In this document: positions 13,360 to 30,842 of the stretch, in pieces
Layout: the number at the start of each line of letters is the position of its first letter
How positions within the stretch are numbered: position 1 is the first letter of the stretch
Source: Candidatus Limnocylindria bacterium
Lineage (GTDB): Bacteria; Chloroflexota; Limnocylindria; Limnocylindrales; CSP1-4
Direction of reading: 5' to 3'
NCBI GenBank assembly: GCA_041482475.1
Contig: JBGPDX010000001.1
Location: 1 to 47,957, forward strand
Length of the DNA stretch: 47,957 nt
The notes under the pieces: model-generated
The model's input: the letters and a program-made list of their open reading frames with translations, nothing else
Told to the model about the DNA's origin: nothing
Databases searched by the model: none
Made by a program: the position numbers and the translations under genes

Positions 13360-13361
13360 GG

Positions 13362-17859: not shown

Positions 17860-17880
17860 ACCACGCGGCGCCCCCGGGCG

Positions 17881-19116
17881 TCAGGCGTCGAGTCGCTCCC
17901 CCACCCGAGCGGCGATGACCCGGCCGATCGCCAGCGACGCCGTCGCCGCCGGCGAGGGCGCGTTCCGGACGTGCAGCACCCGCCCCGACCCGGCGAAGTC
18001 GAAGTCGTCGACCATCGTGCCGTCGCGGGCGAGCGCCTGGGCGCGCACGCCGGAAGGCCCGAAAACGAGCTGGTCCGCGCGCAGCTCGGGGATGTAGCGC
18101 TGGAGCTCGCGCAGGAACGCGCCCTTGGACCAGTCGCGCCACATCTCCGCCAGACCGGTGCGCAGGTACCTCGTCGCCAGGCGGAGAAAGCCCGGGTAGG
18201 TCAGCGTTCGGAACAGGTCGGCCGGTGACAGGTCGCGGCGACGGTAGCCGGCGCGGGCGAAGGCGAGGACGGCATTCGGGCCGGCCCACACGTTGCCGTC
18301 GATCCGGCGGGTGAAATGCACGCCAAGGAACGGGAAGCGCGCATCCGGCACCGGATAGACGAGACCGCGTACCAGGTCGCGGGCATCGGGGGTGAGGGTG
18401 TAGTAGTCGCCGCGGAAGGGCACGATCCGCGGAGCGTCGGGCCCGGCGTCGCCGGTCATCGCCGCCAGCTGGTCGGCCCACAGGCCGGCGCACACGACGA
18501 CGGTACGCGCCGCGACGTTGCCGCCGTCGGTGCGGACGATCGTCGTTCCATGCCGGTCCTCGATCCCGGTCACCCGCCGGCCCGTCTCGATCGTCCCGCC
18601 GGCCGTTCGAACGTCAGCCGCGTACGACAGCGCGACGGCACGGAAGTCGACGATCCCCGTGGTCGGGCTCCACAGCGCGCGGATGCCGGCGACGTGCGGC
18701 TCGATCTCCCGGATCCGTTCCGCGCCGACGAGCTCCAGGCCCGGCACGTCGTTGGCCGTCGCCCGCTCGTGCAGCGCGGTCAGCCGCTCCAGCTCGTCGT
18801 TGGCCAGGGCCACGACGAGCTTCCCGGTCCGCTGCAGGGCAATCCCCTTCGCCGCGCAATAGGTCTCGAGGGCGGCCTTGCCCTCGCGACAGAGCTGCGC
18901 CTTGAGCGAGCCGGGCGCGTAATAGAGTCCGGCGTGGACGACCCCGCTGTTGTGCCCGGACTGATGGGCCGCGAGCTCGGGCTCGCGCTCGAGGACAACC
19001 AACCGAAGGCCGGGTCGATCCTGGAGCAGGTGCCGGGCGGTCGCCAGCCCGACGATCCCGCCGCCGACGATCGCGACGTCGACCGTGCGACTGTCGAGCG
19101 ATGCGCCGCCGGTCAC
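17881..19116 (-). CDS. lhgO: FAD-dependent L-2-hydroxyglutarate oxidase/dehydrogenase-like protein
   Basis: Motifs VDVAIVGGGIVGLATA and HQSGHNSGVVHAGLYYAPGSLKAQLC, plus a length of 411 aa, match LhgO/YgaF-type enzymes. The GTG start overlaps the upstream stop as GTGA. Confidence 0.8.
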   Translation of the reverse strand: MTGGASLDSRTVDVAIVGGGIVGLATARHLLQDRPGLRLVVLEREPELAAHQSGHNSGVVHAGLYYAPGSLKAQLCREGKAALETYCAAKGIALQRTGKLVVALANDELERLTALHERATANDVPGLELVGAERIREIEPHVAGIRALWSPTTGIVDFRAVALSYAADVRTAGGTIETGRRVTGIEDRHGTTIVRTDGGNVAARTVVVCAGLWADQLAAMTGDAGPDAPRIVPFRGDYYTLTPDARDLVRGLVYPVPDARFPFLGVHFTRRIDGNVWAGPNAVLAFARAGYRRRDLSPADLFRTLTYPGFLRLATRYLRTGLAEMWRDWSKGAFLRELQRYIPELRADQLVFGPSGVRAQALARDGTMVDDFDFAGSGRVLHVRNAPSPAATASLAIGRVIAARVGERLDA

Positions 19117-20216
19117 TGTACCGGTGTGGCGCGCGGAAACGGGACGCCGAGTCGCTCGCCAAGCTCGACCAGAGAGGCGTGATGGCGCGCGTCGATGGCG
19201 ACCCCACGCTCATCCGAGCGGCGCTCCGCCTCGGCCTCCGGCTCTCCCGGGATGAGGACGCGCCCCGGGGCGCCGGGCACGGTCTCTGCGGAGGTCAGCT
19301 GGTCGAAGTAGCGCTCCAGCCTGGCCTCGAACGCGCCGGGCTCGTCGATGGCCGCGGGATCGATGACCGAGAAGGCCTGGCCAAGGTCCGACGGCGCCGT
19401 CGTCGCGAACAGGCCGATGATGTTCGGGCCGAACGACGCCCCGGCCAGGATGCCGGTCAGCAGGTCGACGCCAAGGCCCAGGCCGTAGCCCTTGTAGCCG
19501 GCCGTCTCCTCGAGGCCGCCGAGCGGCAGCAGGGCGCCCGCGAGCGCCGCCTCCGGCGTCGTCGCCGGCCGCCCGTCCGGCCCGATGGCCCAGCCCACCG
19601 GGAGCTGCTCGCCACGCCGCGCCGCCACCTCGATCCGCCCGCGCGGGATCGTCGAGGTCGCCATGTCGAGGCAGAACGCTCCCCAGCGGCCGGCGGGCGC
19701 GGCGAGCGCGATCGGGTTGGTGCCGATCAGTGGCCGCAGGGCGCGCGTCGGGGCGACGAGCGGCGAGCTGTTGGTGAACGACAGGCCGATCATCCCGGCC
19801 GCCGCGGCGCGAAGCGCGTACCAGCCGGCGATGCCGTAGTGGTTCGAGTTGCGGACGACCGCGACGGCCGAGCCGGTGGTGCGGGCCCGTTCGATGGCCC
19901 AGTCGATGGCGATCCGCGACGCGTGGTGGCCCCAGCCGTTGCGGGCGTCGAAGCGTGCCAGTGCCGGCTTCTCGCGCTCGACCACGGGGCGCGCGGCGGG
20001 GTCCATCACCCCGGCGTCGACGAGCGCGACGTAGTTCGCCAGCCGGGCCGTGCCATGGGACGCGATCCCCCGCCGGTCAGCGGCGACGAGAATCTCCGCG
20101 ACGTCGGTGGCGATGTCGCCGGGAGTGCCGAGTTTGGCGAGGAGTGCCACCGTCCAGGCCCGGAGGAGATGGGCTCGGACGGTGGCGCCCTCGGCGGGAT
20201 CGGCGTAGACGGGCAT
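19113..20216 (-). CDS. Ldh_2-family (malate/L-lactate/ureidoglycolate-type) 2-hydroxyacid dehydrogenase
   Basis: 367 aa with blocks ADRRGIASHGTARLANY, VVRNSNHYGIAGWY, GTNPIALAAP, MATSTIPRG and GYKGYGLG. Confidence 0.85.
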   Translation of the reverse strand: MPVYADPAEGATVRAHLLRAWTVALLAKLGTPGDIATDVAEILVAADRRGIASHGTARLANYVALVDAGVMDPAARPVVEREKPALARFDARNGWGHHASRIAIDWAIERARTTGSAVAVVRNSNHYGIAGWYALRAAAAGMIGLSFTNSSPLVAPTRALRPLIGTNPIALAAPAGRWGAFCLDMATSTIPRGRIEVAARRGEQLPVGWAIGPDGRPATTPEAALAGALLPLGGLEETAGYKGYGLGLGVDLLTGILAGASFGPNIIGLFATTAPSDLGQAFSVIDPAAIDEPGAFEARLERYFDQLTSAETVPGAPGRVLIPGEPEAEAERRSDERGVAIDARHHASLVELGERLGVPFPRATPVQ

Positions 20217-20225
20217 ACCGTGCGC

Positions 20226-21245
20226 TCAGGCCGGAGCCGTGGCGGCCTCGAGCCCATGCATCTCGGGGACCAGGTCGCCGCGCTCGATCGCGTGGCGGAA
20301 GATGTCGACGGTCTCCCGGATCGCCTGACCGAGCGGCGTCACCGGGACGTCGCCGAGCACGTCGGTCCCGGCGTCGTCGATGGCTCCGGGAAACGGCAGT
20401 GGCTTCGGGTCGAAGGTCACCAGGCCTCGGGCGCCCGGCACGGCGGCCTCGATGGCCGTCACGACATCCTCCATCGAGGCGATCGAGCCGCCCAGGTTGA
20501 AGACCTGCGCGCCCGTCAGCTCGCTGTGGCTGGCCGCAATGAGCGTCCTGGCGACGTCCGCCGCATATTGGAGCAAGGTCCGCCCGCCGAAGGCGATCCG
20601 ATACGGCCGACCGACGACGGCGGACAGGATGGCCTTGGTGGGGCCGCTCGTCATCCCCTGGTCGCGACCCGGGCCGTAGACCGTCAGCGGCCGGAGACCG
20701 ATCGTCGACAGGCCGTCGTCCAGCCAGTAGACCCGCGCGTTGCCCTCGTTGGCGAGCTTGTAGACGCCGTAGTGGGTGACTGGATGGGCGGTCGCGTCGA
20801 CGTGGAGGCGCCCGTCCGCGGCGTCGGCGTCCGCGGCGTCGAACATCCCGATGGAGCTGGTGTAGACGACCTTCGCAATGCGGTCGGTTCGCGCCTTGAC
20901 GGCCTCGAAGACGTTGACGGTCCCGACGACGTTGACGAGCGCGCCCAGTGGCGGATTCGCGCGGGCGAACGGCACCTGCAGCGCGGCGAGGTGGATGACG
21001 TTCGTGATGTCGTGCTCGTCGAGCGCCGCCCCGACGGAGCCCAGCTCGGTGATGTCGCCGCGGACGAAGATGACCCTGCGCAGCTCGTCGTCGGACATGA
21101 TCAGGCGCAGGCGTTTCGGGTCGCCGGCAAGGTCGAAGGCAACGACCGGCAGACCCTGCCGGACCAGCGTCCTGACCGTCCAGGCGCCGATGCAGCCGAG
21201 GGCGCCGGTGACGAGGAAGCGCTCGCCCGACCGTGCGCCTGTCAC
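20226..21245 (-). CDS. NAD-dependent epimerase/dehydratase-family (extended SDR) protein
   Basis: Rossmann motif FLVTGALGCIGAWTVRTLV and catalytic YxxxK (YGVYKLANE). The GTG start overlaps the FAH stop as GTGA. Confidence 0.85.
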   Translation of the reverse strand: MTGARSGERFLVTGALGCIGAWTVRTLVRQGLPVVAFDLAGDPKRLRLIMSDDELRRVIFVRGDITELGSVGAALDEHDITNVIHLAALQVPFARANPPLGALVNVVGTVNVFEAVKARTDRIAKVVYTSSIGMFDAADADAADGRLHVDATAHPVTHYGVYKLANEGNARVYWLDDGLSTIGLRPLTVYGPGRDQGMTSGPTKAILSAVVGRPYRIAFGGRTLLQYAADVARTLIAASHSELTGAQVFNLGGSIASMEDVVTAIEAAVPGARGLVTFDPKPLPFPGAIDDAGTDVLGDVPVTPLGQAIRETVDIFRHAIERGDLVPEMHGLEAATAPA

Positions 21246-22111
21246 GACGCGATCCGGCAGCGGTTGGTGAGCCGGCCGATGCCCTCGATCTCGACGACCA
21301 CCTCATCGCCGTCGGCGAGCCAGAGCGGGGGCTTCCGGAAGGCGCCGACGCCGGCCGGCGTCCCGCTGGCGATGACGTCGCCGGGCTCGAGGGTGAACGC
21401 CCGGGAGCAGTGGCTGACGATCTCGGCGACGCCGAAGTAGAGGTCGGACGTTCGCGCCGACTGGCGCTCCTCGCCGTTGACCAGGCAGCGGATCGCGAGG
21501 TCGCGCGCGTCGCCGATCTCGTCGCCGCTGACCACTACGGGCCCGATGGGACAGAACGTGTCGAGCGACTTGCCGCGGGTCCACTGACCGTCGCCGAACT
21601 GCAGGTCGCGCGCCGACACGTCGTTAAGGCAGGTGTACCCGAGGACGCAGTCGAGCGCGCTCGATTCGTCGACATTGCGCGCGGTCCGGCCGATGACGAC
21701 GCCGAGCTCGGCCTCGTAGTCCACCTGCCTGGTGAGCGACTGGCTCCAGCGGATCTCGTCGCCGTGGGCGATCAGGGCGGTCGGGAACTTCGCGAAGATC
21801 AGGGGCGCGGGAGGCGGCTCGGTCCCGGACTCCGCCGCGTGGTCCTTGTAATTGCGGCCGATCGCCACGACCTTGCCGGGACGTGGCACGGGGGCCAGGA
21901 GTCGGAGTTTCGCCAGGGGCCGGCCCCGGGCCGCGATCCGATCCGGGTTCGCCTGGCGCAGGCGATCGACGCCCGCCGCGCCGGCGGCGAACAGCTCGGC
22001 CATCGTTCGCGGCCCGTCGTCGACGAGCTCCGTGGCGGGAAGCGCACACTCGTCCGCGACCACCGCGAGTCGCTCGCCGTCGCGGTCGTCCAGGTACGAG
22101 CAGAGCCGCAT
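21242..22111 (-). CDS. fumarylacetoacetate hydrolase (FAH) family protein, COG0179 type (candidate 2,4-diketo-3-deoxy-sugar-acid hydrolase)
   Basis: 289 aa with blocks KVVAIGRNYKDHAAE, PLIFAKFPTALIAHGD, VDYEAELGVVIG, NDVSARDLQ, KSLDTFCPIGP and PGDVIASGTPAGVG. Confidence 0.9.
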   Translation of the reverse strand: MRLCSYLDDRDGERLAVVADECALPATELVDDGPRTMAELFAAGAAGVDRLRQANPDRIAARGRPLAKLRLLAPVPRPGKVVAIGRNYKDHAAESGTEPPPAPLIFAKFPTALIAHGDEIRWSQSLTRQVDYEAELGVVIGRTARNVDESSALDCVLGYTCLNDVSARDLQFGDGQWTRGKSLDTFCPIGPVVVSGDEIGDARDLAIRCLVNGEERQSARTSDLYFGVAEIVSHCSRAFTLEPGDVIASGTPAGVGAFRKPPLWLADGDEVVVEIEGIGRLTNRCRIAS

Positions 22112-22134: not shown

Positions 22135-22173
22135 CCGTTCAGCATGCTGGCTTCCGAACGAGATGTTGAACGG
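22135..22173. promoter_or_regulatory. inverted repeat / candidate operator in the divergent FAH-AOR promoter region
   Basis: CCGTTCAGCAT (22135-22145) pairs with ATGTTGAACGG (22163-22173), forming 11-bp arms with 1 mismatch. The first arm contains the perfect 10-bp palindrome CAGCATGCTG (22140-22149). Confidence 0.35.
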
Positions 22174-22216: not shown

Positions 22217-24160
22217 GTGAGCCGGTTCGGCCACTGGGGACGCATCCTTCGGGTCGACCTGTCGACCGGATCGCTCGGCGCGGACCAGCTCGACGACGAC
22301 AGCTGGCGGCTGTATGCCGGCGGCTCGCTCCTCGCCACGCGACTCCTCCTCGCCGAGACGCCGCGCGGGCTCGACGCCTTCGATCCGGCCGCCGTCCTGA
22401 TCGTCGCGTCCAGCGCCGTCGCCGGCCACCGGGCGCCGGCATTGCCTCGCTTCTCGGTCGTGGCGAAGTCGCCACTGACCGGCGGCATCGGCGAGGCGCG
22501 CGCAGAGGGCCCGTTCGGCATCGCCCTCAAGGCCTGTGGCTTCGACGCGCTCGTCATCGGGGGGGCGTCGGAGCGGCCCGTTGCGCTGACAATCGTCGAC
22601 GGCCGGCCGAAGCTCATCCCGGCGGACGACCTGTGGGGCCTCGACACATCGCAGGTCGTCGACGCCCTCGAGGTGCGCCTTGGCCCGTGCCACGTGGCGA
22701 CCATCGGGCCGGCCGGTGAGCGCCTGGTCCGGTTTGCCGGCGTCGTGGCGGACCGCTCGTTCGCCGCGCCGCGGATGGGACTCGGGGCGGTCATGGGGGC
22801 CAAGCGCCTGAAGGCCGTCGCGATCGTCGGCGGCGAGGCGCCACCGGTGGCGGACCCGGGCGCGCTCGATGCCATCCGCCGGGCCTACGCCGGCGCGGTC
22901 GACCGGAATCCGGTCACCAGGTGGCAGCGGCGCCCGCCGGGCTTCGGCGCCTGGGTCGGTGGCGCGCCGGCCGGCTCGTACGCGGTCGAGAACTTCAGGA
23001 CGTCCGCGTTCGACGCGCGGGGCTACCTCGCCGACGCCTTCGAACAGCGTCTCGCCTGGAGCGCCGACGGCTGTCCCGGCTGTCCCAGCGATTGCATCAA
23101 GGGGTTCGCCGGCTCGCCGGATGCGGCAGCCGTCAGGCGGACGGCCGAACGACGGGAGGGCGGCCTCCACCAGGAGGCGATCGCCGCCCTCGGCCCGAAC
23201 CTGGGCCTCGGCAACCTCGGGGATGTCATCGACCTGAACGGGCAATGCCTGCGGCTGGGCCTCGACCCGGTGTCGACCGGCTTCACCCTGAGCTTCGCCA
23301 TGGAGTGCCGCGAGGCGGGGATCGCGACCGGGCACGACCTCGACGGACTCGACCTGCGGTTCGGCCAGGCTTCGGCCGCGACGGCGATGGTCGACCGGAT
23401 CGCCCGGCGTGAAGGGAGTGGCGACTGGCTGGCCGAGGGATCGGCGCGGGCTGCCACGCATGTCGAGGGTGCGGCCGGCCGGTACGCCCTGACCGTCAAG
23501 GGCCTCGAGCTGCCGCCGTTCGACCCGCGGGCCCAGGCGGGCCTCGCCCTGGGATTCGCGACGGCGCCGTTCGGGCCTCGCTACGACGTCGCCGAGCACG
23601 ACGCCGACTACGACGACGAGGCGCCGTCCTGGCCGCACGCCCTCGAGCTGTCGCGGCCGCTGGGCATCGTGGCGCTGTCGCCGGCGACGGCACAGACGCC
23701 GCAGAAGGTCCGCGACTTCGCGGTGCTCGCCCAGCTGTGGAGCGGCTTCGATGCACTGCTCGTCTGTCCGTTCGCGAGCGCGCCGGTCCGGATCCTGTCG
23801 CTCGACGACGTCGCCCGGCTCGTGCGTGCCGTGACCGGCTGGCAGACGAGCTCGGACGAGGTCATGGGCTGGGGCGCGCGCCGCCTCCAGCTCATGCGGA
23901 TCTACAACATCCGCGAAGGGCTCGGAGCGACCGACGACGCGCTGCCCGACCGGTTCTTCGACGAGCCTCTCGACGCGGGGCGCCATGCCGGCACCCATCT
24001 CGACCGGCGGGCCTTCGCCGCGATGATCGCTCGCTACTACGAGCTGATGGGCTGGGACCGCGAGGGCGTCCCCACGCTCGCCGCACGGTCGGCGCACCAT
24101 CTCGAGTGGACGGCATTTGGAGAGGAGCGAGGATGGCCTTCGACCCCACCGAGCGCGTGA
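22217..24160 (+). CDS. aldehyde:ferredoxin oxidoreductase (AOR) family, tungsto-/molybdopterin + [4Fe-4S] enzyme
   Basis: GTG at 22217 after GGAGGGG, in frame within ORF 21233..24160. Sequence VSRFGHWGRILRVDLSTG...LYAGGSLLATRLL...RFSVVAKSPLTGGIGEARAEGPFGIALKACGFDALVIGGAS...GLGAVMGAKRLKA. The cluster motif CPGCPSDC (CxxCxxxC) is present, with a later candidate fourth Cys (LLVCPF). Confidence 0.85.
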   Translation: MSRFGHWGRILRVDLSTGSLGADQLDDDSWRLYAGGSLLATRLLLAETPRGLDAFDPAAVLIVASSAVAGHRAPALPRFSVVAKSPLTGGIGEARAEGPFGIALKACGFDALVIGGASERPVALTIVDGRPKLIPADDLWGLDTSQVVDALEVRLGPCHVATIGPAGERLVRFAGVVADRSFAAPRMGLGAVMGAKRLKAVAIVGGEAPPVADPGALDAIRRAYAGAVDRNPVTRWQRRPPGFGAWVGGAPAGSYAVENFRTSAFDARGYLADAFEQRLAWSADGCPGCPSDCIKGFAGSPDAAAVRRTAERREGGLHQEAIAALGPNLGLGNLGDVIDLNGQCLRLGLDPVSTGFTLSFAMECREAGIATGHDLDGLDLRFGQASAATAMVDRIARREGSGDWLAEGSARAATHVEGAAGRYALTVKGLELPPFDPRAQAGLALGFATAPFGPRYDVAEHDADYDDEAPSWPHALELSRPLGIVALSPATAQTPQKVRDFAVLAQLWSGFDALLVCPFASAPVRILSLDDVARLVRAVTGWQTSSDEVMGWGARRLQLMRIYNIREGLGATDDALPDRFFDEPLDAGRHAGTHLDRRAFAAMIARYYELMGWDREGVPTLAARSAHHLEWTAFGEERGWPSTPPSA

Positions 24161-25179
24161 CGCTGGGGCGCAGCCGGGTGACCGTCACCAGGCTGGGCCT
24201 CGGCACGGCCGAGATCGCCGGGCTCTATCGCCCGGTGACGGACGAGGCGGCCGTGCAGCTCGTGCGCCACGCCTGGGACGCCGGCGCTCGTTACTTCGAC
24301 AGCGCCCCGCTGTACGGCTACGGCAACGGGGAGCGGCGGCTCGGTTTGGGACTGCGTGGCCGCGAGCGGGAGGCCTTCGCCGTCTCGACCAAGGTCGGCC
24401 GGCTGCTCGTTGCCGTGGACCGGATTCCGCCCGGTGCGGTGATCGACCGGCAGTCGCGCGACGGCGTCGACGACGCGTTCTACAGCGGCACGCCGGCCGT
24501 CCGACCCATCTTCGACTTCAGTCGTGACGCGGTGATGCGGTCCGTCGAGGAGAGCCTCGCGCGCCTTGGCCTCGACCGCGTCGACATCCTCTACATCCAC
24601 GACCCCGACGATCACTGGGAGGACGCCATCGGCGGCGCCTATCCGGCGTTGCACGCGCTTCGCGCGGCCGGCGTGGTCGGGGCGATCGGGGCCGGCATGA
24701 ACCAGCCCGGGATGCTGGCGAGGTTCGCCCGCGAGGGCGACTTCGACGTGTTCATGCTGGCCGGCCGCTACACGCTCCTCGACCAGAGCGGCCTCGCCGA
24801 GCTGCTCCCGCTGTGCGTCGAGAAGGGCATCTCGGTCGTCGGCGCGGGGATCATGAACAGCGGCCTGCTGGCGGACCCGAAGCCGGGCGCCCTGTTCGAC
24901 TACGTCCCGGCATCGCGCGTGCTGGTCCACCGCGCCCAGCGGATCCGCGAGGTGTGCGCCCGCCACGGCGTCGGCATTCGCGCGGCAGCGATCCAGTTCC
25001 CCCTCGCCCATCCCGCAGTCGCGGCGATCGTCGCCGGCGTCCGGTCCGTCGAGCACTTCGACGACTATCCGCGGCTGCTGGCCGAGTCGATCCCGGACGA
25101 CCTGTGGGCTGACCTCAAGGCGGAGAGCCTCATCGCGCCACAGGCACCCGTCCCCACCGCCACGGCCGGCGTCGGGTGA
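24133..25179 (+). CDS. aldo/keto reductase, D-threo-aldose (L-fucose/D-arabinose) 1-dehydrogenase-like
   Basis: ATG at 24133 after GGAGCGAGG, in frame within ORF 23737..25179. Sequence VTRLGLGTAEIAG...AWDAGARYFDSAPLYGYGNGERRLG...VDILYIHDP. It overlaps the AOR 3' end by 28 nt. Confidence 0.8.
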   Translation: MAFDPTERVTLGRSRVTVTRLGLGTAEIAGLYRPVTDEAAVQLVRHAWDAGARYFDSAPLYGYGNGERRLGLGLRGREREAFAVSTKVGRLLVAVDRIPPGAVIDRQSRDGVDDAFYSGTPAVRPIFDFSRDAVMRSVEESLARLGLDRVDILYIHDPDDHWEDAIGGAYPALHALRAAGVVGAIGAGMNQPGMLARFAREGDFDVFMLAGRYTLLDQSGLAELLPLCVEKGISVVGAGIMNSGLLADPKPGALFDYVPASRVLVHRAQRIREVCARHGVGIRAAAIQFPLAHPAVAAIVAGVRSVEHFDDYPRLLAESIPDDLWADLKAESLIAPQAPVPTATAGVG

Positions 25180-26024
25180 CGACCGTCGACGCCCATCACC
25201 ATTTCTGGGACCCGGCCACGGCCGACTACCCGTGGATGACCGACGAGGTGGCGCCCATTCGCCGGGCCTTCGGGCCGGCCGATCTGGCGCCGCTGCTGAC
25301 CGAAACGGGCATCGACGCGACGGTCCTGGTCCAGACTCGCTCGAGCCTCGACGAGACGCGCCAGTTCCTGGCGACCGCGGCGGCGGAGCCGTTCATCGCC
25401 GGCGTCGTCGGCTGGGTCGACCTCACCGCCCCGTCCGTGAGCGACGCCATCGCCGCCCTGCGGGCGGCGCCGGGCGGCGATCGCCTGGTCGCCATCCGCC
25501 ACCAGGTCCACGACGAGCCCGACCCGGACTGGCTGGCCCGGGCGGATGTCCGGCGCGGGCTGGCTGCCGTGGCGTCGAGCGGCCTGGCCTACGACCTGCT
25601 CGTCCGCCCGCGGGAGCTGCCGTCCGCGCTCGGCGTGGCGCGCGCGACCCCGGGCCTGCGGTTCATCGTCGATCACGCCGCGAAGCCGCCGATCGCCTCG
25701 GGTCGGCTCGAGCCGTGGGCGAGCCGGCTGCGGCCCCTCGCCCGGCTCGACAACGTGTCCTGCAAGGCGTCGGGCCTGGTGACCGAGGCGGACTGGACGT
25801 CGTGGGCGCCGGACGACCTGCGGCCGTACGTCGAGATGGTGCTCGAGCTGTTCGGCCCGGCGCGGCTGATGTTCGGCTCGGACTGGCCCGTCTGCCTGCT
25901 CGCGGCGACCTACGAGCGGGTCGTCCACAGCGTGCGGGAGCTGACGAGCTCACTGACGGTTGCGGAACGTGGGCGGATCTTCGGCGGGACCGCGATCGAG
26001 ACCTACGCGCTGCGGATCGCCTGA
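25176..26024 (+). CDS. amidohydrolase_2 (cog3618) sugar lactonase, L-fucono-1,5-lactonase-like
   Basis: Sequence MTTVDAHHHFWDP...IVDHAAKPP...MFGSDWPVC carries the metal-ligand blocks of cog3618 lactonases. The GTG start overlaps the AKR stop as GTGA. Confidence 0.85.
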   Translation: MTTVDAHHHFWDPATADYPWMTDEVAPIRRAFGPADLAPLLTETGIDATVLVQTRSSLDETRQFLATAAAEPFIAGVVGWVDLTAPSVSDAIAALRAAPGGDRLVAIRHQVHDEPDPDWLARADVRRGLAAVASSGLAYDLLVRPRELPSALGVARATPGLRFIVDHAAKPPIASGRLEPWASRLRPLARLDNVSCKASGLVTEADWTSWAPDDLRPYVEMVLELFGPARLMFGSDWPVCLLAATYERVVHSVRELTSSLTVAERGRIFGGTAIETYALRIA

Positions 26025-26923
26025 GCGGCCGTTCCGGCGGATCTGCCGACGACGGCGACGGGGTTTTCGAGCGTCCCCAGCGGCCCGGCCTCGATGCGCA
26101 CGATGTCGCCGTGGCGGAGGGTGAACGATGGGTCAGGGACGACGCCGGTGCCGCTCAGCAGGATCGCGCCGGACGGGAGCTCCAGGGCACGGCCAAGGAA
26201 CTCGACCAGCTCGTCGAGCGGCCGCCGGATGCGAGCCGTCGTGGTCGCGTCGTCGACGACCGTCGCGCCGTCCCGACTGACGACGAGGCGAAGGCTGAAC
26301 GGCGGCGACACCTCGGTCGACGGCACGAGCGCCGGCCCCAGCGCGCACGAGCCGTCGTACACCTTGGCCTGCGGCAGGTAGAGCGGGTTCTCGCCCTCGA
26401 TCGTCCGGCTCGAGACGTCGTTGCCGATGGTGTAACCGGCGATCGACAGGTCCGCCGCGACGACGAGCGCCAGCTCCGGCTCGGGGACATTCCACGCCGA
26501 GTCCGCCCGGATGCCGATCCGCTCCCCCGGGCCGCGGACGCGCCAGCCGGGCGACTTGAAGAACAGCTCCGGGCGGTCGGCCTCGTAGACGCGGTCGTAG
26601 ACCGACGCCTCGGCCGACTCCTCCATCCGCGCGTCGCGCGAACGCTCGTAGGTGACGCCGGCGGCCCAGATCTCCTGCTCGTCGACGGGGGCGAGGATCC
26701 GCCAGCCGGTGGGCACCGCTTCTCCCGACGCGATCGCCACGGCCTCCGCCAGCCCCGTCGGGCCGCGGCGCAGGATGGCGGCCACGGACTCCACCGGTTC
26801 GAGCAGGTGGCGCGGCCCGCTGGCGACCTCGCCGGCGGCGAGGCGCACCGAGCCATCGGGCAGCCGGAGGCGGAACAGCGCTCGCGTCACCGCAGCCTCA
26901 CGGGCTCCGGCCGTCGCCGTCAC
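26003..26923 (-). CDS. FAH-superfamily protein of the KdaD (2-keto-3-deoxy-D-arabinonate dehydratase)-like branch
   Basis: Blocks IWAAGVTYERSRDARMEES...VYDRVYEADRPELFFKS...ADSAWNVPEPELALVV...GNDVSSRTIEGENPLYLPQAKVY...LLSGTGVVP recall archaeal KdaD rather than hydrolase-type FAH. The alternative GTG start at 26890 removes the 26-nt overlap with iclR. Confidence 0.75.
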   Translation of the reverse strand: MTATAGAREAAVTRALFRLRLPDGSVRLAAGEVASGPRHLLEPVESVAAILRRGPTGLAEAVAIASGEAVPTGWRILAPVDEQEIWAAGVTYERSRDARMEESAEASVYDRVYEADRPELFFKSPGWRVRGPGERIGIRADSAWNVPEPELALVVAADLSIAGYTIGNDVSSRTIEGENPLYLPQAKVYDGSCALGPALVPSTEVSPPFSLRLVVSRDGATVVDDATTTARIRRPLDELVEFLGRALELPSGAILLSGTGVVPDPSFTLRHGDIVRIEAGPLGTLENPVAVVGRSAGTAAQAIRSA

Positions 26924-27743
26924 GGGCGTTCGCCACGAGCGGGTTCGACAGCAGGCGGGCGAGCCGCTTGAGGTCCGCGGCGAGGGCCTCGATGCGGGCG
27001 GGGTCGGCGCGCGCCTTGAGCAGCGTGACGCTCACTCCGTACTGATCGCTTCCCGAGCGACGCGGGATCGCCACGCCGATGCAGATGATTCCCTCCGACG
27101 TCTCCTCGTTGTCGACGGCGTGGCCGCGGCGCCGGACCTCGTCGAGGTCGTCGAGCAGGTCCGCCACGCGACGGTGCGAGTTACGGGTCAGTGTGGGCAG
27201 GGACTCGACGCCGCGCAGGCGGTCGGCGAGATCGGCGGGGTCGAGCGCGGCCAGGGTCGCCTTGCCGAGCGCCGTACAGGACGCCGGCAGCCGCCGCCCG
27301 ATCTCCGAGGCGAGACGGATCGGCTGGCGGCCGTCGTGCCGCGCGACATAGGTGACCTCGAGGCCGTCGAGCAGCGCCATCTGCATCGTCTCCTCCGACG
27401 CGACCGGCAGCCGGTCGGCAAGGTCGTAGAACTCCTGGACCTGGTCGACCGTGGCGAGGTAGGCGCCACCCAGCTCGGCCAGCCGCCGCCCCAACCGGAA
27501 CCCGGCGCCCGCCCGCCGGACGAGCCCGGCCTCGACGAGGGCGCTGCAGATGTTGGCGACGGATGACTTCGGCAGGCCAAGCCGGCGGGCGAGCTCGCTG
27601 AGCGGCGTCGGAGCCGACGAGTTCTCGGCCAGCGCATCGAGAATGGCCGCCGCCCGCGTCACAGCGGGGGCGAGCGTCGCCGCTCCGCGGGCCTCCGCAT
27701 CGAGGTCCGCGGAATCGTTGACGGTCCTTGACTCGCTTCGCAT
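26898..27743 (-). CDS. IclR-family transcriptional regulator
   Basis: Internal ATG (complement 27741-27743) of ORF 26898..29189. It has a wHTH ([45 protein letters not shown]) and an IclR effector domain ([30 protein letters not shown]). Confidence 0.9.
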
Positions 27744-27746: not shown

Positions 27747-27792
27747 GTCCAGCCTACCGTCTATCGTCCAGCATTTTGGACGCAGCGTCCAG
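27747..27792. promoter_or_regulatory. candidate IclR operator set in the 69-bp iclR/fucD divergent region
   Basis: Three direct GTCCAG hexamers lie at 27747, 27766 and 27787 (19- and 21-bp spacing). The middle one is part of the palindrome CGTCCA-gcattt-TGGACG (27765-27782). Confidence 0.45.
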
Positions 27793-27812: not shown

Positions 27813-29150
27813 ATGGCCCCGCGGATCGTCTCGCTCGAGGTGCACGACGTCCGGTTCCCGACGTCGCGCTCGCTCGACGGCTCGGACGCGATGAATCCCG
27901 ACCCCGACTACTCGGCGGCGTACGTGGTCCTCCGAACGGACGATCCCGCCTGGCCGACCGGCCACGGCCTGACGTTCACGACCGGCCGCGGGACCGAGGT
28001 CGTGACGACGGCCGTCAAGGCGCTCCGGCCGTTGGTCGTCGGGCGGTCGGCCAGCTCGATCTTCGGCGACATCGGCGGCTACTGGCGCGAGCTGGTGGGA
28101 GACAGCCAGTTGCGCTGGATCGGCCCCGAGAAGGGCGTCATCCATCTCGCCACGGCGGCCGTCGTCAACGCCACCTGGGACCTCTGGGCGAAGCGCGAGG
28201 GCAAGCCGCTCTGGAAGCTGCTGGTCGACCTGCCGTCGGAGGAGATCGTTCGGGCGATCGATTTCCGCTACCTGACCGATGCCTTGACGCCGGACGACGC
28301 GCTGGCCATCCTGCGGCCGCTCGAGGCGACCAGGTCGAGGCGCGAGGCGGAGATGATCCGCGACGGCTACCCGGCCTACACGACGTCGGTCGGCTGGCTG
28401 GGCTATTCGGACGACAAGATCCGGCGGCTCTGTTCGGAGGCCCTGGCCGACGGCTGGACGAGCTTCAAGATGAAGGTCGGCGCGGACCTCGACGACGACA
28501 TCCGGCGGGCGCGGATCGTGCGCCAGGCTATCGGCCCGACGAACCTGCTGATGATCGATGCCAACCAGCGCTGGGACGTGGGGACGGCGATCTCGTGGGT
28601 CAAGGCCCTGGCCGAGTTCGAGCCGTACTGGATCGAGGAGCCAACCAGTCCGGATGACATCCTGGGCCACGCGGCGATTGCCCGCGCCGTCCACCCGATC
28701 CGCGTCGCGACCGGCGAGCACGTCCACAACCGGGTCATGTTCAAGCAGTTCCTGGCGGCCGGCGGGATGGACGTCTGCCAGGTCGACGCCTGCCGGCTGG
28801 GCGGCGTCAACGAGGTGCTCGCCGTGCTGCTGCTGGCCGCCCGCTTCGGCGTGCCGGTCTGTCCGCACGCCGGCGGGGTGGGGCTGTGCGAGCTCGTCCA
28901 GCACCTCGCGATCTTCGACTACATCGCCGTCAGCGGCGACCTGTCGGGCCGGATGGTCGAGTACGTCGACCACCTGCACGAGCACTTCGTCGATCCGGTC
29001 AGGATCCGGAACGGTCGCTACGTCGCCCCGGAACGGCCGGGCTACGGCGCCGAGATGCTTCCGGACAGCCTGCGCCGCCACACCTTCCCCGGCGGTGAGG
29101 TGTGGCAGACCGTGGCCGTGGGAGCGGCCGAGGGGGGATCCAGTCGGTGA
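27813..29150 (+). CDS. fucD: L-fuconate dehydratase (enolase superfamily, mandelate racemase subgroup)
   Basis: 445 aa. The N-terminus [39 protein letters not shown] is nearly diagnostic of FucD. Later blocks are [32 protein letters not shown] and ATGEHV. Confidence 0.9.
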
Positions 29151-29206: not shown

Positions 29207-30769
29207 ATGGTGAAACGTCGGTCCCTGCGCGGCGTCGGCCTCCTGGCGAGCGTGGTGCTCGTCGCTGGTGCCTGTCAGGCAGCGGCGCCCAGCTCGGCGC
29301 CGGCCAGCGTCGCGTCCAGCGCCCCGGCCGCATCGGCATCGTCCGCCCCGGCGTCGCAGGCGCCGCGGGGCACCAAGTTCAAGGGCGTCAACGTCAACAT
29401 CCTCACCTTCAACGGGCCGCAGGTCGCCGAGCCGCTGCAGCGGCGCGCGCCGGACTGGGAGCAGCTCACCGGCGGACACGTCAACGTCATCGCCGTCGGC
29501 TTCCAGACGATCTACGACAAGGCGCTGCTCGACGCGTCGACCGGCACCAACTCGTTCGACGCCTACGTCTTCGACCCGCAGTGGATGGGCGACTTCGTCG
29601 CTCCCGGCTACCTGCTCGACATCACCGATCGGGTCAACAACGACCCGCAACTGAACTGGCAGGACATCGGGCCGTACTTCCGCGACTTCAGCGCGACCTA
29701 CAACGGCAAGGTCTACATGGTCCCGCTCGACGGCGACTTCCATATGGTCTACTACCGGAAGGACCTGTTCGACAAGGACGGCGTCAAGCCGCCGGCAACC
29801 TGGGACGACTACCTGACGATCGCCGCCAAGTACAACGGTCAGGACCTTAATGGCGACGGCCAGCCGGACTACGGCTCGTGCATCGCCAAGAAGAAGGGCG
29901 CCCAGAGCTACTGGTGGATCATCTCCATTGCCGCCGGCCTGCTGCAGGCGAAGGGCACCAACGAAGGGGCGTTCTTCAACACGAAGGACATGAGCCCGCT
30001 CTTCGGCCAGAACGAGGCCATCACCAAGGCCCTCGACACCTACGCGAAGACGGCCACGTTCGGACCGCCCGACGAGCTCAACATGGACGTCGGCGGGACC
30101 CGCGGCCTGTTCACCACCGGGCGCTGCGCCCTGTCGATGGACTGGGGTGACATCGGCACCCTGGCCCCCGGCACGTACGCCCAGGACCGGACCGGCGCGA
30201 CGATCACGCCGGGCTGGAAGCAGATTCTCGACCGCTCGACCGGCAAGCTCGTGGCGTGCGATGGGACCACCTGCCCGAACGCGGTCGACGGCGTGAACTA
30301 CGCGCCGTTCTCCTCCTTCGGTGGCTGGTCCGGCGCCATCAACGCCAAGTCCCCGAAGGCCCAGCAGGACGCGGCATACGACTTCCTGTCGTACATGAGC
30401 TCACCGGCCATCTCGGGCGTCGACGTGACGCTCGGCAAGACCGGCTACAACCCGTACCGGACGTCGCACTTCTCGAACATCGATCCGTGGATCAAGGCCG
30501 GCCTCAGCGAGGCGGCCGCGAAGAACTACCTGGGAGCGATCCAGGCCAGCCTGCAGAACAAGAACATGGTCCTCGACCTGCGGATCCCGCTGACCAAGCG
30601 GTATGAGCAGGACGTGCTCGACACCGCGGTCTCGCAGTACCTGGCCAAGGAGCTCGACGCCGCTGGCGCCGAGCAGGCCATCGCCGATGGCTGGAACGCC
30701 ATCACCGACGAGGCCGGGAGGGCCAAGCAGCTCGCTGCATACGTCGCCAGCCTTGGCGTCCAGCGATAA
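29207..30769 (+). CDS. ABC sugar transporter substrate-binding lipoprotein (SBP family 1)
   Basis: ATG at 29207 after GAGGAGG. Lipoprotein-type signal (MVKRRSLRGVGLLASVVLVAGAC), an S/A-rich tether, then an SBP fold (VNILTFNGPQVAEP...FDAYVFDPQWMGDF). Confidence 0.85.
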   Translation: MVKRRSLRGVGLLASVVLVAGACQAAAPSSAPASVASSAPAASASSAPASQAPRGTKFKGVNVNILTFNGPQVAEPLQRRAPDWEQLTGGHVNVIAVGFQTIYDKALLDASTGTNSFDAYVFDPQWMGDFVAPGYLLDITDRVNNDPQLNWQDIGPYFRDFSATYNGKVYMVPLDGDFHMVYYRKDLFDKDGVKPPATWDDYLTIAAKYNGQDLNGDGQPDYGSCIAKKKGAQSYWWIISIAAGLLQAKGTNEGAFFNTKDMSPLFGQNEAITKALDTYAKTATFGPPDELNMDVGGTRGLFTTGRCALSMDWGDIGTLAPGTYAQDRTGATITPGWKQILDRSTGKLVACDGTTCPNAVDGVNYAPFSSFGGWSGAINAKSPKAQQDAAYDFLSYMSSPAISGVDVTLGKTGYNPYRTSHFSNIDPWIKAGLSEAAAKNYLGAIQASLQNKNMVLDLRIPLTKRYEQDVLDTAVSQYLAKELDAAGAEQAIADGWNAITDEAGRAKQLAAYVASLGVQR

Positions 30770-30842
30770 GCCCATCGATGTCGAATCCCCGGAGCCGATC
30801 CCAGCGGGGTCGGCACTGAGGGATCGGGCCACGCGCCGAGCG

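What the first reader, a model, noticed from the sequence alone, without database searches (positions are those of the whole stretch)
22217..26024. AOR-family aldehyde:ferredoxin oxidoreductase is the first gene of a sugar 1-dehydrogenase/lactonase operon
- **Seen in the sequence:** A 648-aa AOR-family protein carries the CxxCxxxC cluster motif CPGCPSDC. It is followed by an AKR aldose 1-dehydrogenase-like gene with a 28-nt overlap, then a cog3618 lactonase with a GTGA overlap. The three genes are almost certainly co-translated.
- **Established knowledge:** Bacterial oxidative L-fucose/D-arabinose routes use NAD(P)-dependent aldehyde dehydrogenases, such as 2,5-dioxopentanoate or lactaldehyde dehydrogenase. 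Pterin-dependent AORs oxidising pathway aldehydes are known mainly from archaeal non-phosphorylative sugar pathways and from anaerobes.
- **Inference:** With the KdaD-like dehydratase and FucD nearby, AOR may take the aldehyde-oxidising step (2,5-dioxopentanoate to 2-oxoglutarate, or lactaldehyde to lactate). That would make a ferredoxin-linked Weimberg-type pathway. No ferredoxin, tungstate/molybdate uptake or pterin-biosynthesis gene is visible in this window.
Basis: partly seen in the sequence, partly recalled or inferred. Interest (0 to 1): 0.65.

Follow-up and report, generated by a model that had tools for sequence, protein, structure and literature searches.

The report
Pterin aldehyde oxidoreductase in sugar-oxidation cluster
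A metal-pterin aldehyde-oxidising enzyme usually linked to anaerobes is a fixed, co-regulated part of a sugar-oxidation gene cluster in soil bacteria, and it probably replaces the usual NAD-dependent enzyme for the last step to 2-oxoglutarate.

Summary
**Observation: confirmed.**
- Window 22217-24160 encodes a 647-aa AOR/WOR-family protein with all four [4Fe-4S] cysteines.
- It overlaps an aldo-keto reductase gene by 28 nt.
- That gene overlaps a cog3618-type lactonase gene by GTGA.

**Context**
- L-fuconate dehydratase (FucD), a KdaD-type 2-keto-3-deoxy-D-arabinonate dehydratase, an IclR regulator and an ABC transporter lie alongside.
- This core cluster recurs in eight separate contigs, including a Limnocylindrales and an Acidimicrobiia MAG.
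- One operator-like palindrome sits upstream of both the AOR operon and the FucD operon.

**Best reading (confidence about 0.5)**
- The AOR oxidises 2,5-dioxopentanoate to 2-oxoglutarate, in place of an NAD(P)-dependent aldehyde dehydrogenase (ALDH).
- KdaD homologues elsewhere sit most often next to an ALDH of the alpha-ketoglutarate-semialdehyde type. The AOR-linked clusters carry no ALDH.

**Main rival**
- L-lactaldehyde or glycolaldehyde oxidation. The wider AOR clade often lies in L-fucose isomerase, kinase and fucosidase operons.

**Caveats**
- Two of the four second-shell residues of canonical AORs are replaced by Phe.
- The metal, the electron acceptor and the substrate are untested.

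No publication linking these was found. I class it as a new variant of a known kind, interest about 0.6.

The parts
16891..17859 (+). GFO/IDH/MocA-family NAD(P) oxidoreductase. It is an accessory gene of the cluster.
   Evidence: - Pfam GFO_IDH_MocA.
- It recurs next to the cluster in L001, L081 and L087.
17881..19116 (-). FAD oxidase that reaches the NCBIfam cut-off for L-2-hydroxyglutarate oxidase.
   Evidence: - NF008726 scores 522 bits against a cut-off of 299.
- It is present in W, L001, L085 and L087, and merged with Ldh_2 in L089.
19113..20216 (-). Ldh_2-family 2-hydroxyacid dehydrogenase.
   Evidence: - Pfam Ldh_2, E 7e-110.
- It recurs in L001, L081, L085, L087 and L089.
20226..21245 (-). 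Extended SDR (epimerase/dehydratase family). It is transcribed away from the AOR operon and belongs to the conserved core. Its role is unknown.
   Evidence: - Pfam Epimerase.
- Only weak matches to solved structures.
- Present in all eight orthologous clusters.
21242..22111 (-). FAH-family protein of the HpcE / 2,4-diketo-3-deoxy-sugar-acid hydrolase type (FAH1). It is present in only some of the clusters.
   Evidence: - Pfam FAA_hydrolase, E 5e-75.
- PDB 8gsr, L-2,4-diketo-3-deoxyrhamnonate hydrolase, E 5e-51.
- Absent from L002, L084 and L085.
22137..22152 (.). Operator-like palindrome GTTCAGCATGCTGGCT in the divergent promoter region upstream of the AOR operon.
   Evidence: - It is one of only two places in the window that match GTYCAGYATNYTGKAC at up to 2 mismatches, against 0.35 expected.
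- It is conserved upstream of the AOR gene in seven other loci.
22217..24160 (+). AOR/WOR-family pyranopterin [4Fe-4S] oxidoreductase, first gene of the operon.
   Evidence: - Pfam AFOR_N and AFOR_C.
- PDB 1aor, E 1e-88.
- AlphaFold model pLDDT 93. Foldseek TM-score 0.87/0.93 to 1aor at 32% identity.
- C286, C289 and C293 are invariant and C517 nearly invariant in the clade.
24133..25179 (+). Aldo-keto reductase, probably an aldose 1-dehydrogenase for sugars of L-fucose / L-galactose / D-arabinose configuration.
   Evidence: - Pfam Aldo_ket_red.
- The best solved relatives are L-galactose dehydrogenases, E 3e-29.
- It overlaps the AOR gene by 28 nt.
25176..26024 (+). Amidohydrolase_2 (cog3618-type) sugar lactonase.
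   Evidence: - PDB 4dlf (BmulJ_04915), E 4e-55.
- NCBIfam L-fucono-1,5-lactonase scores 239 bits, below the cut-off of 400.
- GTGA overlap with the AKR gene.
26003..26923 (-). KdaD-type FAH-family 2-keto-3-deoxy-D-arabinonate dehydratase. Its product would be 2,5-dioxopentanoate.
   Evidence: - PDB 2q18 (S. solfataricus KdaD), E 1e-55. The PEPELA and ENPLYLPQxK stretches are shared.
- JGI names its homologues 2-dehydro-3-deoxy-D-arabinonate dehydratase.
26898..27740 (-). IclR-family regulator, probably the regulator of the cluster.
   Evidence: - Pfam HTH_IclR and IclR_C.
- Conserved in all the orthologous clusters.
27766..27781 (.). Operator-like palindrome GTCCAGCATTTTGGAC between the IclR and FucD genes.
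   Evidence: - Exact match to the consensus.
- Conserved upstream of FucD in seven other loci.
27813..29150 (+). L-fuconate dehydratase (FucD, enolase superfamily).
   Evidence: PDB 1yey and 2hxt, E 5e-184, aligned over the full length.
29207..30769 (+). Solute-binding protein of a sugar ABC transporter.
   Evidence: - Pfam SBP_bac_1.
- Syntenic in all the orthologous clusters.
30774..32968 (+). Two ABC permease genes (about 30774-31946 and 31886-32968). The starts are approximate.
   Evidence: Pfam BPD_transp_1 for both.

Best explanation
The cluster encodes an oxidative, non-phosphorylative route for sugars of the L-fucose / L-galactose / D-arabinose configuration. All enzyme activities below are inferred from homology; none was measured.

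**Proposed steps**
1. The ABC transporter imports the sugar.
2. The AKR oxidises C1 to the lactone.
3. The cog3618-type lactonase opens the lactone.
4. FucD dehydrates the sugar acid to the 2-keto-3-deoxy acid.
5. For the pentose (D-arabinose) branch, the KdaD-type dehydratase gives 2,5-dioxopentanoate (alpha-ketoglutarate semialdehyde).
6. The AOR-family enzyme oxidises that aldehyde to 2-oxoglutarate at its pyranopterin metal centre. Electrons leave through its [4Fe-4S] cluster to a separately encoded carrier, probably a ferredoxin.

The AOR thus takes the place that an NAD(P)-dependent ALDH holds in ordinary Weimberg-type clusters.

**Shown directly**
- The gene identities, by homology.
- The overlapping reading frames.
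- Conservation of the cluster in eight contigs.
- The shared operator-like motif.
- The presence or absence pattern of ALDH genes.

**Inferred**
- The substrate of the AOR.
- The sugar that is used.
- The metal and the electron acceptor.
For: **Identity of the parts**
- AOR fold and cluster ligands are intact.
- FucD matches 1yey at E 5e-184.
- The lactonase matches 4dlf at E 4e-55.
- The AKR is closest to L-galactose dehydrogenases.
- FAH2 matches Sulfolobus KdaD at E 1e-55 and shares the PEPELA and ENPLYLPQxK stretches.

**Conservation**
- The core is SDRe | AOR-AKR-lactonase | KdaD-IclR | FucD-transporter. It is present in the window and in L001, L002, L081, L084, L085, L087 and L089.
- Nine equal contig lengths between the AOR and KdaD hit lists point to more shared contigs.
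- These AORs form one branch of a neighbour-joining tree.

**Gene displacement**
- Among 106 direct neighbours of KdaD homologues that lack an AOR, the commonest family is Aldedh (24). ILVD_EDD (11) and MR_MLE (6) follow.
- Eight of ten sampled neighbours best match the alpha-ketoglutaric semialdehyde / 2,5-dioxovalerate dehydrogenase models.
- L097 and L100 carry ALDH-KdaD-FucD operons whose FucD is 68-69% identical to the window's.
- No ALDH was found at E<1e-3 in the 90 AOR-carrying stretches (the window and 89 loci), nor in L088, which has KdaD only. Together these are 91 sequences, 1.40 Mb.
- With at least 3 kb of flank, 9 of 19 KdaD loci have an ALDH against 0 of 8 AOR-linked ones (Fisher p = 0.026).

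**Co-regulation**
- The same operator-like palindrome lies upstream of the AOR and FucD operons in eight loci.

**Product**
- An L-2-hydroxyglutarate-oxidase equivalog in the divergent operon fits a C5-dicarboxylate end product.
Against: - Nothing here is biochemical evidence.
- The statistics are thin. There are eight AOR-linked clusters and p is about 0.03. Some FucD-KdaD clusters also lack an adjacent ALDH (L124, L129-L131).
- An ALDH could be encoded elsewhere in these genomes.
- Relatives of this AOR at 42-53% identity lie in L-fucose isomerase, fuculokinase and alpha-L-fucosidase operons. There the only free aldehyde is lactaldehyde.
- With L-fucose or L-galactose as the substrate, the KdaD step would give a ketone and not an aldehyde (my own chemical reasoning). 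The reading therefore needs a pentose substrate.
- The conserved extended SDR has no role in this scheme.
- Thr243 and Tyr427 of canonical AORs are Phe in the whole clade (review PMC12096430). The chemistry may therefore differ.
- No ferredoxin gene and no Mo/W-cofactor gene was found in the window.
Confidence: 0.5

Rival explanations
1. The AOR oxidises L-lactaldehyde to L-lactate, or glycolaldehyde to glycolate for D-arabinose. These are the short hydroxy-aldehydes released when fucose-type sugars are split by an aldolase.
For: **L-fucose threads across the wider clade**
- L083 has LacI-FucI-FGGY kinase-arginase-like-AOR-SDR-GFO in one operon.
- L043 (Virgibacillus halophilus) has a class II aldolase, a kinase, a transporter, AOR, FucI, a kinase and an aldolase-SDR fusion.
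- L018 has FucI-kinase-alpha-L-fucosidase-AOR.
- GH29 fucosidases lie near the AOR in L031, L040 and L045.

**Other points**
- E. limosum WOR1, another family member, oxidises lactaldehyde in vitro (PMC11725836).
- The Ldh_2 and FAD-oxidase genes in the window could deal with lactate.
Against: - No aldolase family (DHDPS, HpcH, class II or KDPG type) is in the conserved core. Only L081 has a KDPG-type aldolase, at the edge of the cluster.
- The conserved partner is a KdaD-type dehydratase.
- The KdaD-linked AORs form their own branch, separate from the FucI-linked ones. Their substrates may therefore differ.
- L043 already carries an aldolase-SDR fusion of the kind reported to include lactaldehyde dehydrogenase activity (my own knowledge).
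Confidence: 0.2
2. The AOR oxidises the free aldose (L-fucose, D-arabinose or a relative) straight to the sugar acid. It would run in parallel with the AKR and lactonase.
For: - Several loci carry a bare AOR-MR_MLE gene pair between housekeeping genes: L023, L026, L027, L032, L048 and L066.
- Sugar acid formation followed by dehydration would be consecutive steps there.
Against: - The window already encodes a dehydrogenase and a lactonase for this step, in the same operon.
- Aldoses are almost entirely cyclic hemiacetals and are not known substrates of AOR-family enzymes (general knowledge).
- This does not explain the link to KdaD or the lack of ALDH genes.
Confidence: 0.07
3. The enzyme has a different job. 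It could be a general scavenger of reactive aldehydes made during sugar-acid breakdown, or it could catalyse a non-aldehyde reaction, as other divergent family members do (for example benzoyl-CoA reductase BamB or WOR5/ASOR).
For: - Two of the four canonical second-shell residues are replaced by Phe, and a clade-specific GPRYDxxEHDWDYD insertion lies at the active-site loop.
- The neighbours of the wider clade are varied and include MlrC/M81, URO-D-like, M20 and arginase-like proteins.
- Glyoxalase-family genes lie near the cluster in the window and in L084 and L087.
Against: - A generic detoxifier would not be expected to sit at the head of the operon with overlapping reading frames, conserved across two phyla and under the same operator.
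- The catalytic Glu313 equivalent is invariant.
- There is no extra Cys ligand of the BamB/YdhV type. This rests on my own reading of the alignments and I did not test it specifically.
Confidence: 0.18

Closest known systems
Pyrococcus furiosus aldehyde:ferredoxin oxidoreductase (AOR sensu stricto, WOR clade 87; PDB 1AOR)
   Same: - Same two Pfam domains.
- Same fold, with TM-score 0.87/0.93.
- All four [4Fe-4S] cysteines, Arg76, Arg182, the second pterin-motif Asp and the catalytic Glu313 are conserved.
- Single-subunit type, with no partner subunit genes nearby.
   Different: - Only 32% identical.
- Thr243 and Tyr427 are Phe.
- The His448 region carries an insertion, so the alignment there is ambiguous.
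- Asp338 is Leu in the window protein and Asn in the clade consensus.
- The hosts are mesophilic bacteria of groups that are mostly aerobic.
- The gene sits inside a sugar-catabolic regulon, not in peptide fermentation.
Brevibacillus massiliensis BmWOR / Haloferax WOR83 (WOR clade 83), the only family members characterised from aerobes (PMC9424855)
   Same: - Single-subunit AOR-family enzyme in aerobes.
- It shows that such enzymes can work with ferredoxin in air-breathing cells.
   Different: - The window protein is much further from WOR83 (9q1t, E 2e-45, aligned over the N-terminal 450 residues only) than from P. furiosus AOR.
- BmWOR is described as a broad aldehyde detoxifier, not as part of a sugar pathway.
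Weimberg-type (Route II) D-arabinose pathway of Sulfolobus solfataricus and bacterial counterparts (PMC6336799)
   Same: - Same order of steps: aldose dehydrogenase, enolase-superfamily dehydratase acting on D-arabinonate, FAH-type KdaD.
- The expected product is 2,5-dioxopentanoate.
   Different: - The known pathways end with an NAD(P)-dependent ALDH (EC 1.2.1.26).
- Here no ALDH is present, and an AOR-family gene is.
- The dehydratase is a FucD orthologue, and the first two steps use an AKR and a cog3618 lactonase.
Bacterial L-fucose diketo-hydrolase pathway (Xanthomonas FucD cluster; Burkholderia BmulJ_04915 lactonase cluster)
   Same: - FucD, a cog3618 lactonase and a sugar 1-dehydrogenase are present.
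- In some clusters, an FAH-family hydrolase-like gene (FAH1) is present too.
   Different: - That pathway produces no free aldehyde and contains no AOR.
- Its 4-dehydrogenase is a classical SDR, whereas only an extended SDR is present here.
- FAH1 is missing from three of the eight orthologous clusters.
Archaeal non-phosphorylative Entner-Doudoroff variants, in which an oxidoreductase that is not an NAD-dependent ALDH oxidises glyceraldehyde (my own knowledge)
   Same: - The idea is the same: a pathway aldehyde from sugar-acid breakdown is oxidised by a metal-pterin enzyme instead of an ALDH.
   Different: - Different organisms, a different aldehyde and a different pathway.

Membership tests
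AOR/WOR family (pyranopterin [4Fe-4S] oxidoreductases) | AFOR_N and AFOR_C domains and the three-domain fold | tested here: met
   - Pfam E 9e-60 and 2e-83.
- AlphaFold pLDDT 93. Foldseek TM-score 0.87/0.93 to 1aor.
AOR/WOR family (pyranopterin [4Fe-4S] oxidoreductases) | Four Cys ligands of the [4Fe-4S] cluster (CxxCxxxC plus a distal Cys) | tested here: met
   - C286, C289, C293 and C517 align with P. furiosus C288, C291, C295 and C494.
- They are invariant or nearly invariant in 45 clade members.
AOR/WOR family (pyranopterin [4Fe-4S] oxidoreductases) | Pterin-binding residues (Arg76, Arg182 and the two DxxGL(C/D)x motifs) | tested here: inconclusive
   - Both Arg residues and the second-motif Asp are conserved.
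- The first-motif Asp338 is Leu here and Asn in the clade consensus. It is also Asn in the solved AORs 9mqx and 9g7j.
AOR/WOR family (pyranopterin [4Fe-4S] oxidoreductases) | Bound W- or Mo-bis-pyranopterin cofactor | not testable with these tools
   - This needs metal analysis of the protein.
- No cofactor-synthesis or uptake gene, and no Moco riboswitch, was found in the window.
AOR sensu stricto (broad-spectrum aldehyde:ferredoxin oxidoreductases) | [quoted passage not shown] | tested here: not met
   - Glu is conserved (E320).
- Thr is replaced by Phe243 and Tyr by Phe435, in both the pairwise and the profile alignment.
- His aligns with Tyr456 in one alignment and His461 in the other.
AOR sensu stricto (broad-spectrum aldehyde:ferredoxin oxidoreductases) | Ferredoxin as the physiological electron acceptor | not testable with these tools
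   - No ferredoxin gene is in the window.
- No Fer4-type family is among the top 25 families of direct neighbours across the clade, and none is among the Pfam hits on record for the annotated loci.
Weimberg-type (Route II) oxidative pentose pathway | Aldose 1-dehydrogenase, lactonase and sugar-acid dehydratase | tested here: met
   By homology only: AKR, cog3618-type lactonase, FucD.
Weimberg-type (Route II) oxidative pentose pathway | 2-keto-3-deoxypentonate dehydratase giving 2,5-dioxopentanoate | tested here: met
   By homology only: FAH2 against Sulfolobus KdaD, E 1e-55, with the PEPELA and ENPLYLPQxK stretches shared.
Weimberg-type (Route II) oxidative pentose pathway | NAD(P)-dependent alpha-ketoglutarate semialdehyde dehydrogenase (ALDH superfamily) | tested here: not met
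   - No ALDH at E<1e-3 in the window or in any AOR-linked locus.
- The rest of each genome was not searched.
L-fucose diketo-hydrolase pathway | L-2-keto-3-deoxyfuconate 4-dehydrogenase (classical SDR) and 2,4-diketo-3-deoxyfuconate hydrolase (FAH) | tested here: inconclusive
   - Only an extended SDR with weak matches is present.
- FAH1 resembles the rhamnonate-pathway hydrolase: 8gsr at E 5e-51, and 203 bits in NCBIfam against a cut-off of 500.
- FAH1 is missing from L002, L084 and L085.
L-fucono-1,5-lactonase (NCBIfam NF052480 / cog3618) | Score above the curated equivalog cut-off | tested here: not met
   - 239 bits against a cut-off of 400.
- It is still the closest solved relative (4dlf, E 4e-55).
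- The protein is a family relative, and its substrate is not fixed by this.

The most novel reading that the evidence does not exclude
**The reading**
- A large, uncharacterised clade of AOR/WOR-family pyranopterin enzymes is dedicated to sugar catabolism.
- The clade has a remodelled active site, with Phe in place of Thr243 and Tyr427 and a GPRYDxxEHDWDYD loop.
- It lives mostly in oxygen-respiring soil and freshwater bacteria.
- The window's branch would be a 2,5-dioxopentanoate:ferredoxin (or other carrier) oxidoreductase.

**What it would mean**
- It would make an aerobic Weimberg-type pathway feed low-potential electrons.
- It would also imply an oxygen-tolerant W or Mo enzyme in central carbon metabolism.
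Probability: 0.4. Interest if true: 0.75.

Novelty: new variant of a known kind. Interest (0 to 1): 0.62.

Why it matters
- **A testable role for an unassigned clade.** Only 4 of the 92 clades of this enzyme family have a known physiological role, and only one member has been characterised from an aerobe (PMC9424855, PMC12096430). This finding gives a specific, testable role for another clade: a named substrate, a named pathway, and partner enzymes that can make the substrate in vitro.
- **A change in where these enzymes are expected.** If the reading is right, metal-pterin aldehyde oxidoreductases are ordinary parts of sugar catabolism in common soil and freshwater phyla. These include Chloroflexota, Actinomycetota, Acidobacteriota and Planctomycetota.
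- **Effects on metabolic reconstruction.** Tungsten or molybdenum supply could limit the use of fucose- and arabinose-type sugars. Reconstructions that look for an ALDH to close the Weimberg pathway would wrongly score these organisms as incomplete.
- **Possible use.** The enzyme would be an NAD-independent route to 2-oxoglutarate for pathway engineering.

Tried and rejected
**Searches that found nothing**
- Rfam at gathering threshold gave no match, so there is no Moco/Tuco riboswitch.
- A six-frame scan for CxxCxxCxxxC found no ferredoxin.
- Full-text searches linking AOR to alpha-ketoglutarate semialdehyde or to fuconate gave no papers.
- The paper with the 92-clade tree (Schut et al. 2021) is not held, so I could not assign a clade number.

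**Methods that failed or were limited**
- My first ORF-based gene calls failed in high-GC DNA. I replaced them with a codon-usage caller trained on the AOR or KdaD gene of each locus.
- The plasmid collection gave one clade member, Nonomuraea gerenzanensis at 43% identity, but the record has no annotation.
- A strict shared k-mer search between the two promoter regions found nothing. The motif appeared only when orthologous promoters were compared.
- The absence of ALDH genes from 1.4 Mb of AOR neighbourhoods is weaker than it looks. Background ALDH density in the comparison contigs is also low: 0 in 255 kb lying more than 3 kb from KdaD.

**Readings considered and set aside**
- WOR clade 83 membership is unlikely, because the match to 9q1t is weak and partial.
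- A pseudogene is unlikely, because the ORF is intact, all ligands are conserved and the closest relatives (the KdaD-linked group) are 59-74% identical.
- Subclade-specific Arg gains (R12, R346, R365, R624) might suit an acidic substrate. I could not map them onto the model, so I give them no weight.

Full report
**1.

The window is about 71% G+C. The reading frame 22217-24160 (+) translates to a 647-aa protein that matches both Pfam domains of the aldehyde:ferredoxin oxidoreductase family: AFOR_N at E 9e-60 and AFOR_C at E 2e-83. The motif CPGCPSDC lies at residues 286-293.

The GTG start at 22217 has GGAGG 7-11 nt upstream. It also fits the N-termini of 44 homologues. A public gene call used an ATG 54 nt further upstream.

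The next gene is an aldo-keto reductase. It starts at ATG 24133 behind a purine-rich stretch and overlaps the AOR gene by 28 nt. The third gene is an Amidohydrolase_2 protein. It starts at GTG 25176 inside the AKR stop, which is the GTGA overlap. An independent gene caller made the same calls on other contigs that carry the identical protein.

**2. What the parts are.**

*The AOR.*
- Its closest solved structure is P. furiosus AOR (1aor, E 1e-88). The electron-bifurcating WOR 9mqx, FOR, two bacterial AORs, WOR83, WOR5 and BamB follow.
- An AlphaFold model built on 45 relatives has pLDDT 93. It superposes on 1aor with TM-score 0.87/0.93 at 32% identity.
- The four cluster cysteines, Arg76, Arg182, the second pterin-motif Asp and the catalytic Glu313 equivalent are conserved.

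*The neighbours.*

| Gene | Coordinates | Best evidence |
|---|---|---|
| Enolase-superfamily dehydratase | 27813-29150 | L-fuconate dehydratase 1yey, E 5e-184 |
| Amidohydrolase | 25176-26024 | L-fucono-1,5-lactonase BmulJ_04915 (4dlf), E 4e-55 |
| AKR | 24133-25179 | L-galactose dehydrogenases, E 3e-29 |
| FAH-family gene, convergent with the lactonase | 26003-26923 | S. solfataricus KdaD (2q18), E 1e-55; PEPELA and ENPLYLPQxK stretches shared |

- A second FAH protein (21242-22111) resembles diketo-sugar-acid hydrolases.
- An extended SDR, an Ldh_2 dehydrogenase, an FAD oxidase and a GFO-family oxidoreductase complete a divergent operon. The FAD oxidase passes NCBI's cut-off for L-2-hydroxyglutarate oxidase.
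- An IclR regulator and a sugar ABC transporter flank FucD.

**3. The arrangement is conserved and co-regulated.**

A scan of species-representative genomes with a clade alignment returned 80 loci. Look-ups of individual proteins added more. The core is extended SDR | AOR-AKR-lactonase | KdaD-IclR | FucD-transporter. It is present in:
- the window;
- a Limnocylindrales MAG (L001);
- an Acidimicrobiia MAG (L002);
- five metagenome contigs: L081, L084, L085, L087 and L089.

These AORs form one branch of a neighbour-joining tree of 77 clade members.

Comparing promoters across the eight loci shows a palindrome, GTYCAGYATNYTGKAC, upstream of both the AOR operon and the FucD operon. In the 48-kb window it occurs at up to 2 mismatches only at 22137-22152 and 27766-27781, against 0.35 places expected by chance. 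I read this as one regulon under the cluster's IclR protein. That reading is an inference.

**4. What the AOR most likely does.**

Every step up to 2,5-dioxopentanoate has a candidate enzyme: dehydrogenase, lactonase, FucD and KdaD. FucD is known to accept D-arabinonate, and FAH-type bacterial dehydratases are known to make this semialdehyde (PMC6336799). The usual last enzyme is an NAD(P)-dependent ALDH.

I fetched 80 metagenome loci with KdaD homologues 47-64% identical to the window's. None carries an AOR.
- Among 106 of their direct neighbours, the commonest Pfam family is Aldedh (24). ILVD_EDD dehydratases (11) and MR_MLE (6) follow.
- Eight of ten sampled neighbours best match the alpha-ketoglutaric semialdehyde / 2,5-dioxovalerate dehydrogenase models.
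- Two contigs carry ALDH-KdaD-FucD operons whose FucD is 68-69% identical to the window's.
- In contrast, four ALDH seeds find nothing at E<1e-3 in the 90 AOR-carrying stretches, which are the window and 89 loci. They also find nothing in L088, which has KdaD only. Together that is 91 sequences and 1.40 Mb.
- With at least 3 kb of flank, 9 of 19 KdaD loci have an ALDH against 0 of 8 AOR-linked ones (p = 0.026).

This pattern is what one expects if the AOR has displaced the ALDH. The L-2-hydroxyglutarate oxidase in the cluster also fits a C5-dicarboxylate product. I put this reading at about 0.5.

**5. Why not higher.**

*The wider clade points to L-fucose.* Members 42-53% identical to the window protein occur in Chloroflexota, Actinomycetota, Planctomycetota, Acidobacteriota, Alphaproteobacteria, Spirochaetes, Bacillota and Bacteroidota. 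Their gene contexts are varied but rich in sugar genes:
- MR_MLE in 14 of 81 loci, and SDR in 10;
- cog3618-type amidohydrolases in 8, and AKRs in 7-9;
- L-fucose isomerase in 4, or 5 counting L083;
- GH29 alpha-L-fucosidase in 3, or 4 counting L018.

Three operons join the AOR to L-fucose isomerase and a sugar kinase. They come from Virgibacillus halophilus (L043), a Pseudogracilibacillus (L018) and a 4.18-Mb contig (L083). L043 also carries class II aldolases, and L018 a fucosidase. In that pathway the free aldehyde is L-lactaldehyde. Lactaldehyde or glycolaldehyde oxidation is therefore the main rival (about 0.2), although the conserved core of the window's cluster has no aldolase.

*Other rivals.* Bare AOR-MR_MLE pairs in Roseiflexaceae and others would suit direct aldose oxidation, which I rate low (about 0.07). 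A scavenging role or a different chemistry takes most of the rest.

*The active site is not canonical.* A 2025 review lists Thr243, Glu313, Tyr427 and His448 as the conserved second shell of aldehyde-oxidising members (PMC12096430). In this clade Thr and Tyr are both Phe. The His region carries an insertion (GPRYDxxEHDWDYD) that aligns in two different ways and is the only low-confidence loop of the model.

*Remaining weaknesses.*
- The sample of AOR-linked clusters is small.
- An ALDH could lie elsewhere in these genomes.
- The conserved extended SDR has no role in my scheme.
- With a 6-carbon sugar, the KdaD step would give a ketone and not an aldehyde.

**6. Electron acceptor and cofactor.**

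No ferredoxin motif, Moco riboswitch, or Mo/W-uptake or pterin-synthesis family was found in the window. No Fer4-type partner is among the top 25 families of direct neighbours across the clade, and none is listed for the Pfam-annotated loci. The enzyme therefore looks like the single-subunit type. Ferredoxin is the default acceptor for that type, but this is untested.

**7. Comparison with what is known, and novelty.**

The protein is a member of the AOR/WOR family by domain, fold and cluster ligands. It fails the second-shell test for AOR sensu stricto. It is not close to clade 83, the only clade characterised from an aerobe (PMC9424855).

The pathway resembles the Sulfolobus and bacterial Route II D-arabinose pathway and the bacterial L-fucose pathway, but it lacks the ALDH that defines Route II. 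Full-text searches found no paper linking this family to fuconate or to alpha-ketoglutarate semialdehyde. Only 4 of the 92 family clades have a known role.

I class the finding as a new variant of a known kind. It is a known enzyme family recruited to a known pathway type, in organisms and at a step where it has not been described.

Noticed in passing
window 22137-22152 and 27766-27781; also L001, L002, L081, L084, L085, L087, L089 upstream of the AOR and FucD genes: - A conserved palindrome, GTYCAGYATNYTGKAC, lies in both divergent promoter regions of the cluster. It is probably the IclR operator.
- A second conserved element, TGAACGGTACGCTA followed about 17 nt later by GTCAA, follows it upstream of the AOR gene.
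   Followed up: partly
window 17881-20216 (-); L089 16163-18538: - An L-2-hydroxyglutarate-oxidase equivalog and an Ldh_2 dehydrogenase travel together with the cluster.
- In L089 they are called as a single 791-aa product.
- Their role in the pathway is unexplained.
   Followed up: partly
AOR residues 243, 435 and 451-466 (window about 22943, 23519 and 23567-23614): - A clade-wide change of the active-site second shell: Phe in place of Thr243 and Tyr427.
- An invariant GPRYDxxEHDxDYD insertion, which is the only low-confidence loop in the AlphaFold model.
   Followed up: partly
L023, L026, L027, L032, L042, L078 (Roseiflexaceae, Thermoflexus and other Chloroflexota): A two-gene AOR-MR_MLE module sits directly after a purK-like ATP-grasp gene and, in some of the loci, before htpG. 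No other sugar genes are adjacent.
   Followed up: no
L014, L015, L022, L024, L029, L035: In six loci the AOR clade member is directly next to an MlrC/M81 (DUF1485) peptidase-like gene. URO-D-like genes are present in L014 and in several other clade loci, and sulfatases in L024 and L035. This context does not fit the fucose theme.
   Followed up: no
L043 (Virgibacillus halophilus KCTC 13935) 2693-18500: A cultured aerobe carries a clade member inside a fucose/rhamnose-type operon: class II aldolase, kinase, transporter, M20 peptidase, AOR, FucI, kinase, aldolase-SDR fusion and DeoR. It could serve as an experimental system.
   Followed up: partly
window 5638-7551 (+): A Flavodoxin_5-domain protein is followed by DsbA-like thioredoxin and VKOR genes. 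A multicopper oxidase lies at 2795-4087. This fits an oxygen-exposed lifestyle. The flavodoxin-like protein is the only small redox carrier candidate in the window.
   Followed up: no
window 12688-14136 (-): The high third-position-GC signal switches frame near 13362-13410 inside a 482-aa ORF. Only the C-terminal part of that ORF matches methyltransferase domains. It may be a frameshift or two genes.
   Followed up: no
window 34748-42336 (-): A second, unrelated sugar locus: AKR, SIS-domain protein, ABC permeases and binding protein, and two ROK-family genes.
   Followed up: no
L124, L129, L130, L131: Permease-FucD-KdaD operons have neither an ALDH nor an AOR next to them, so the last step is also unassigned there.
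   Followed up: no
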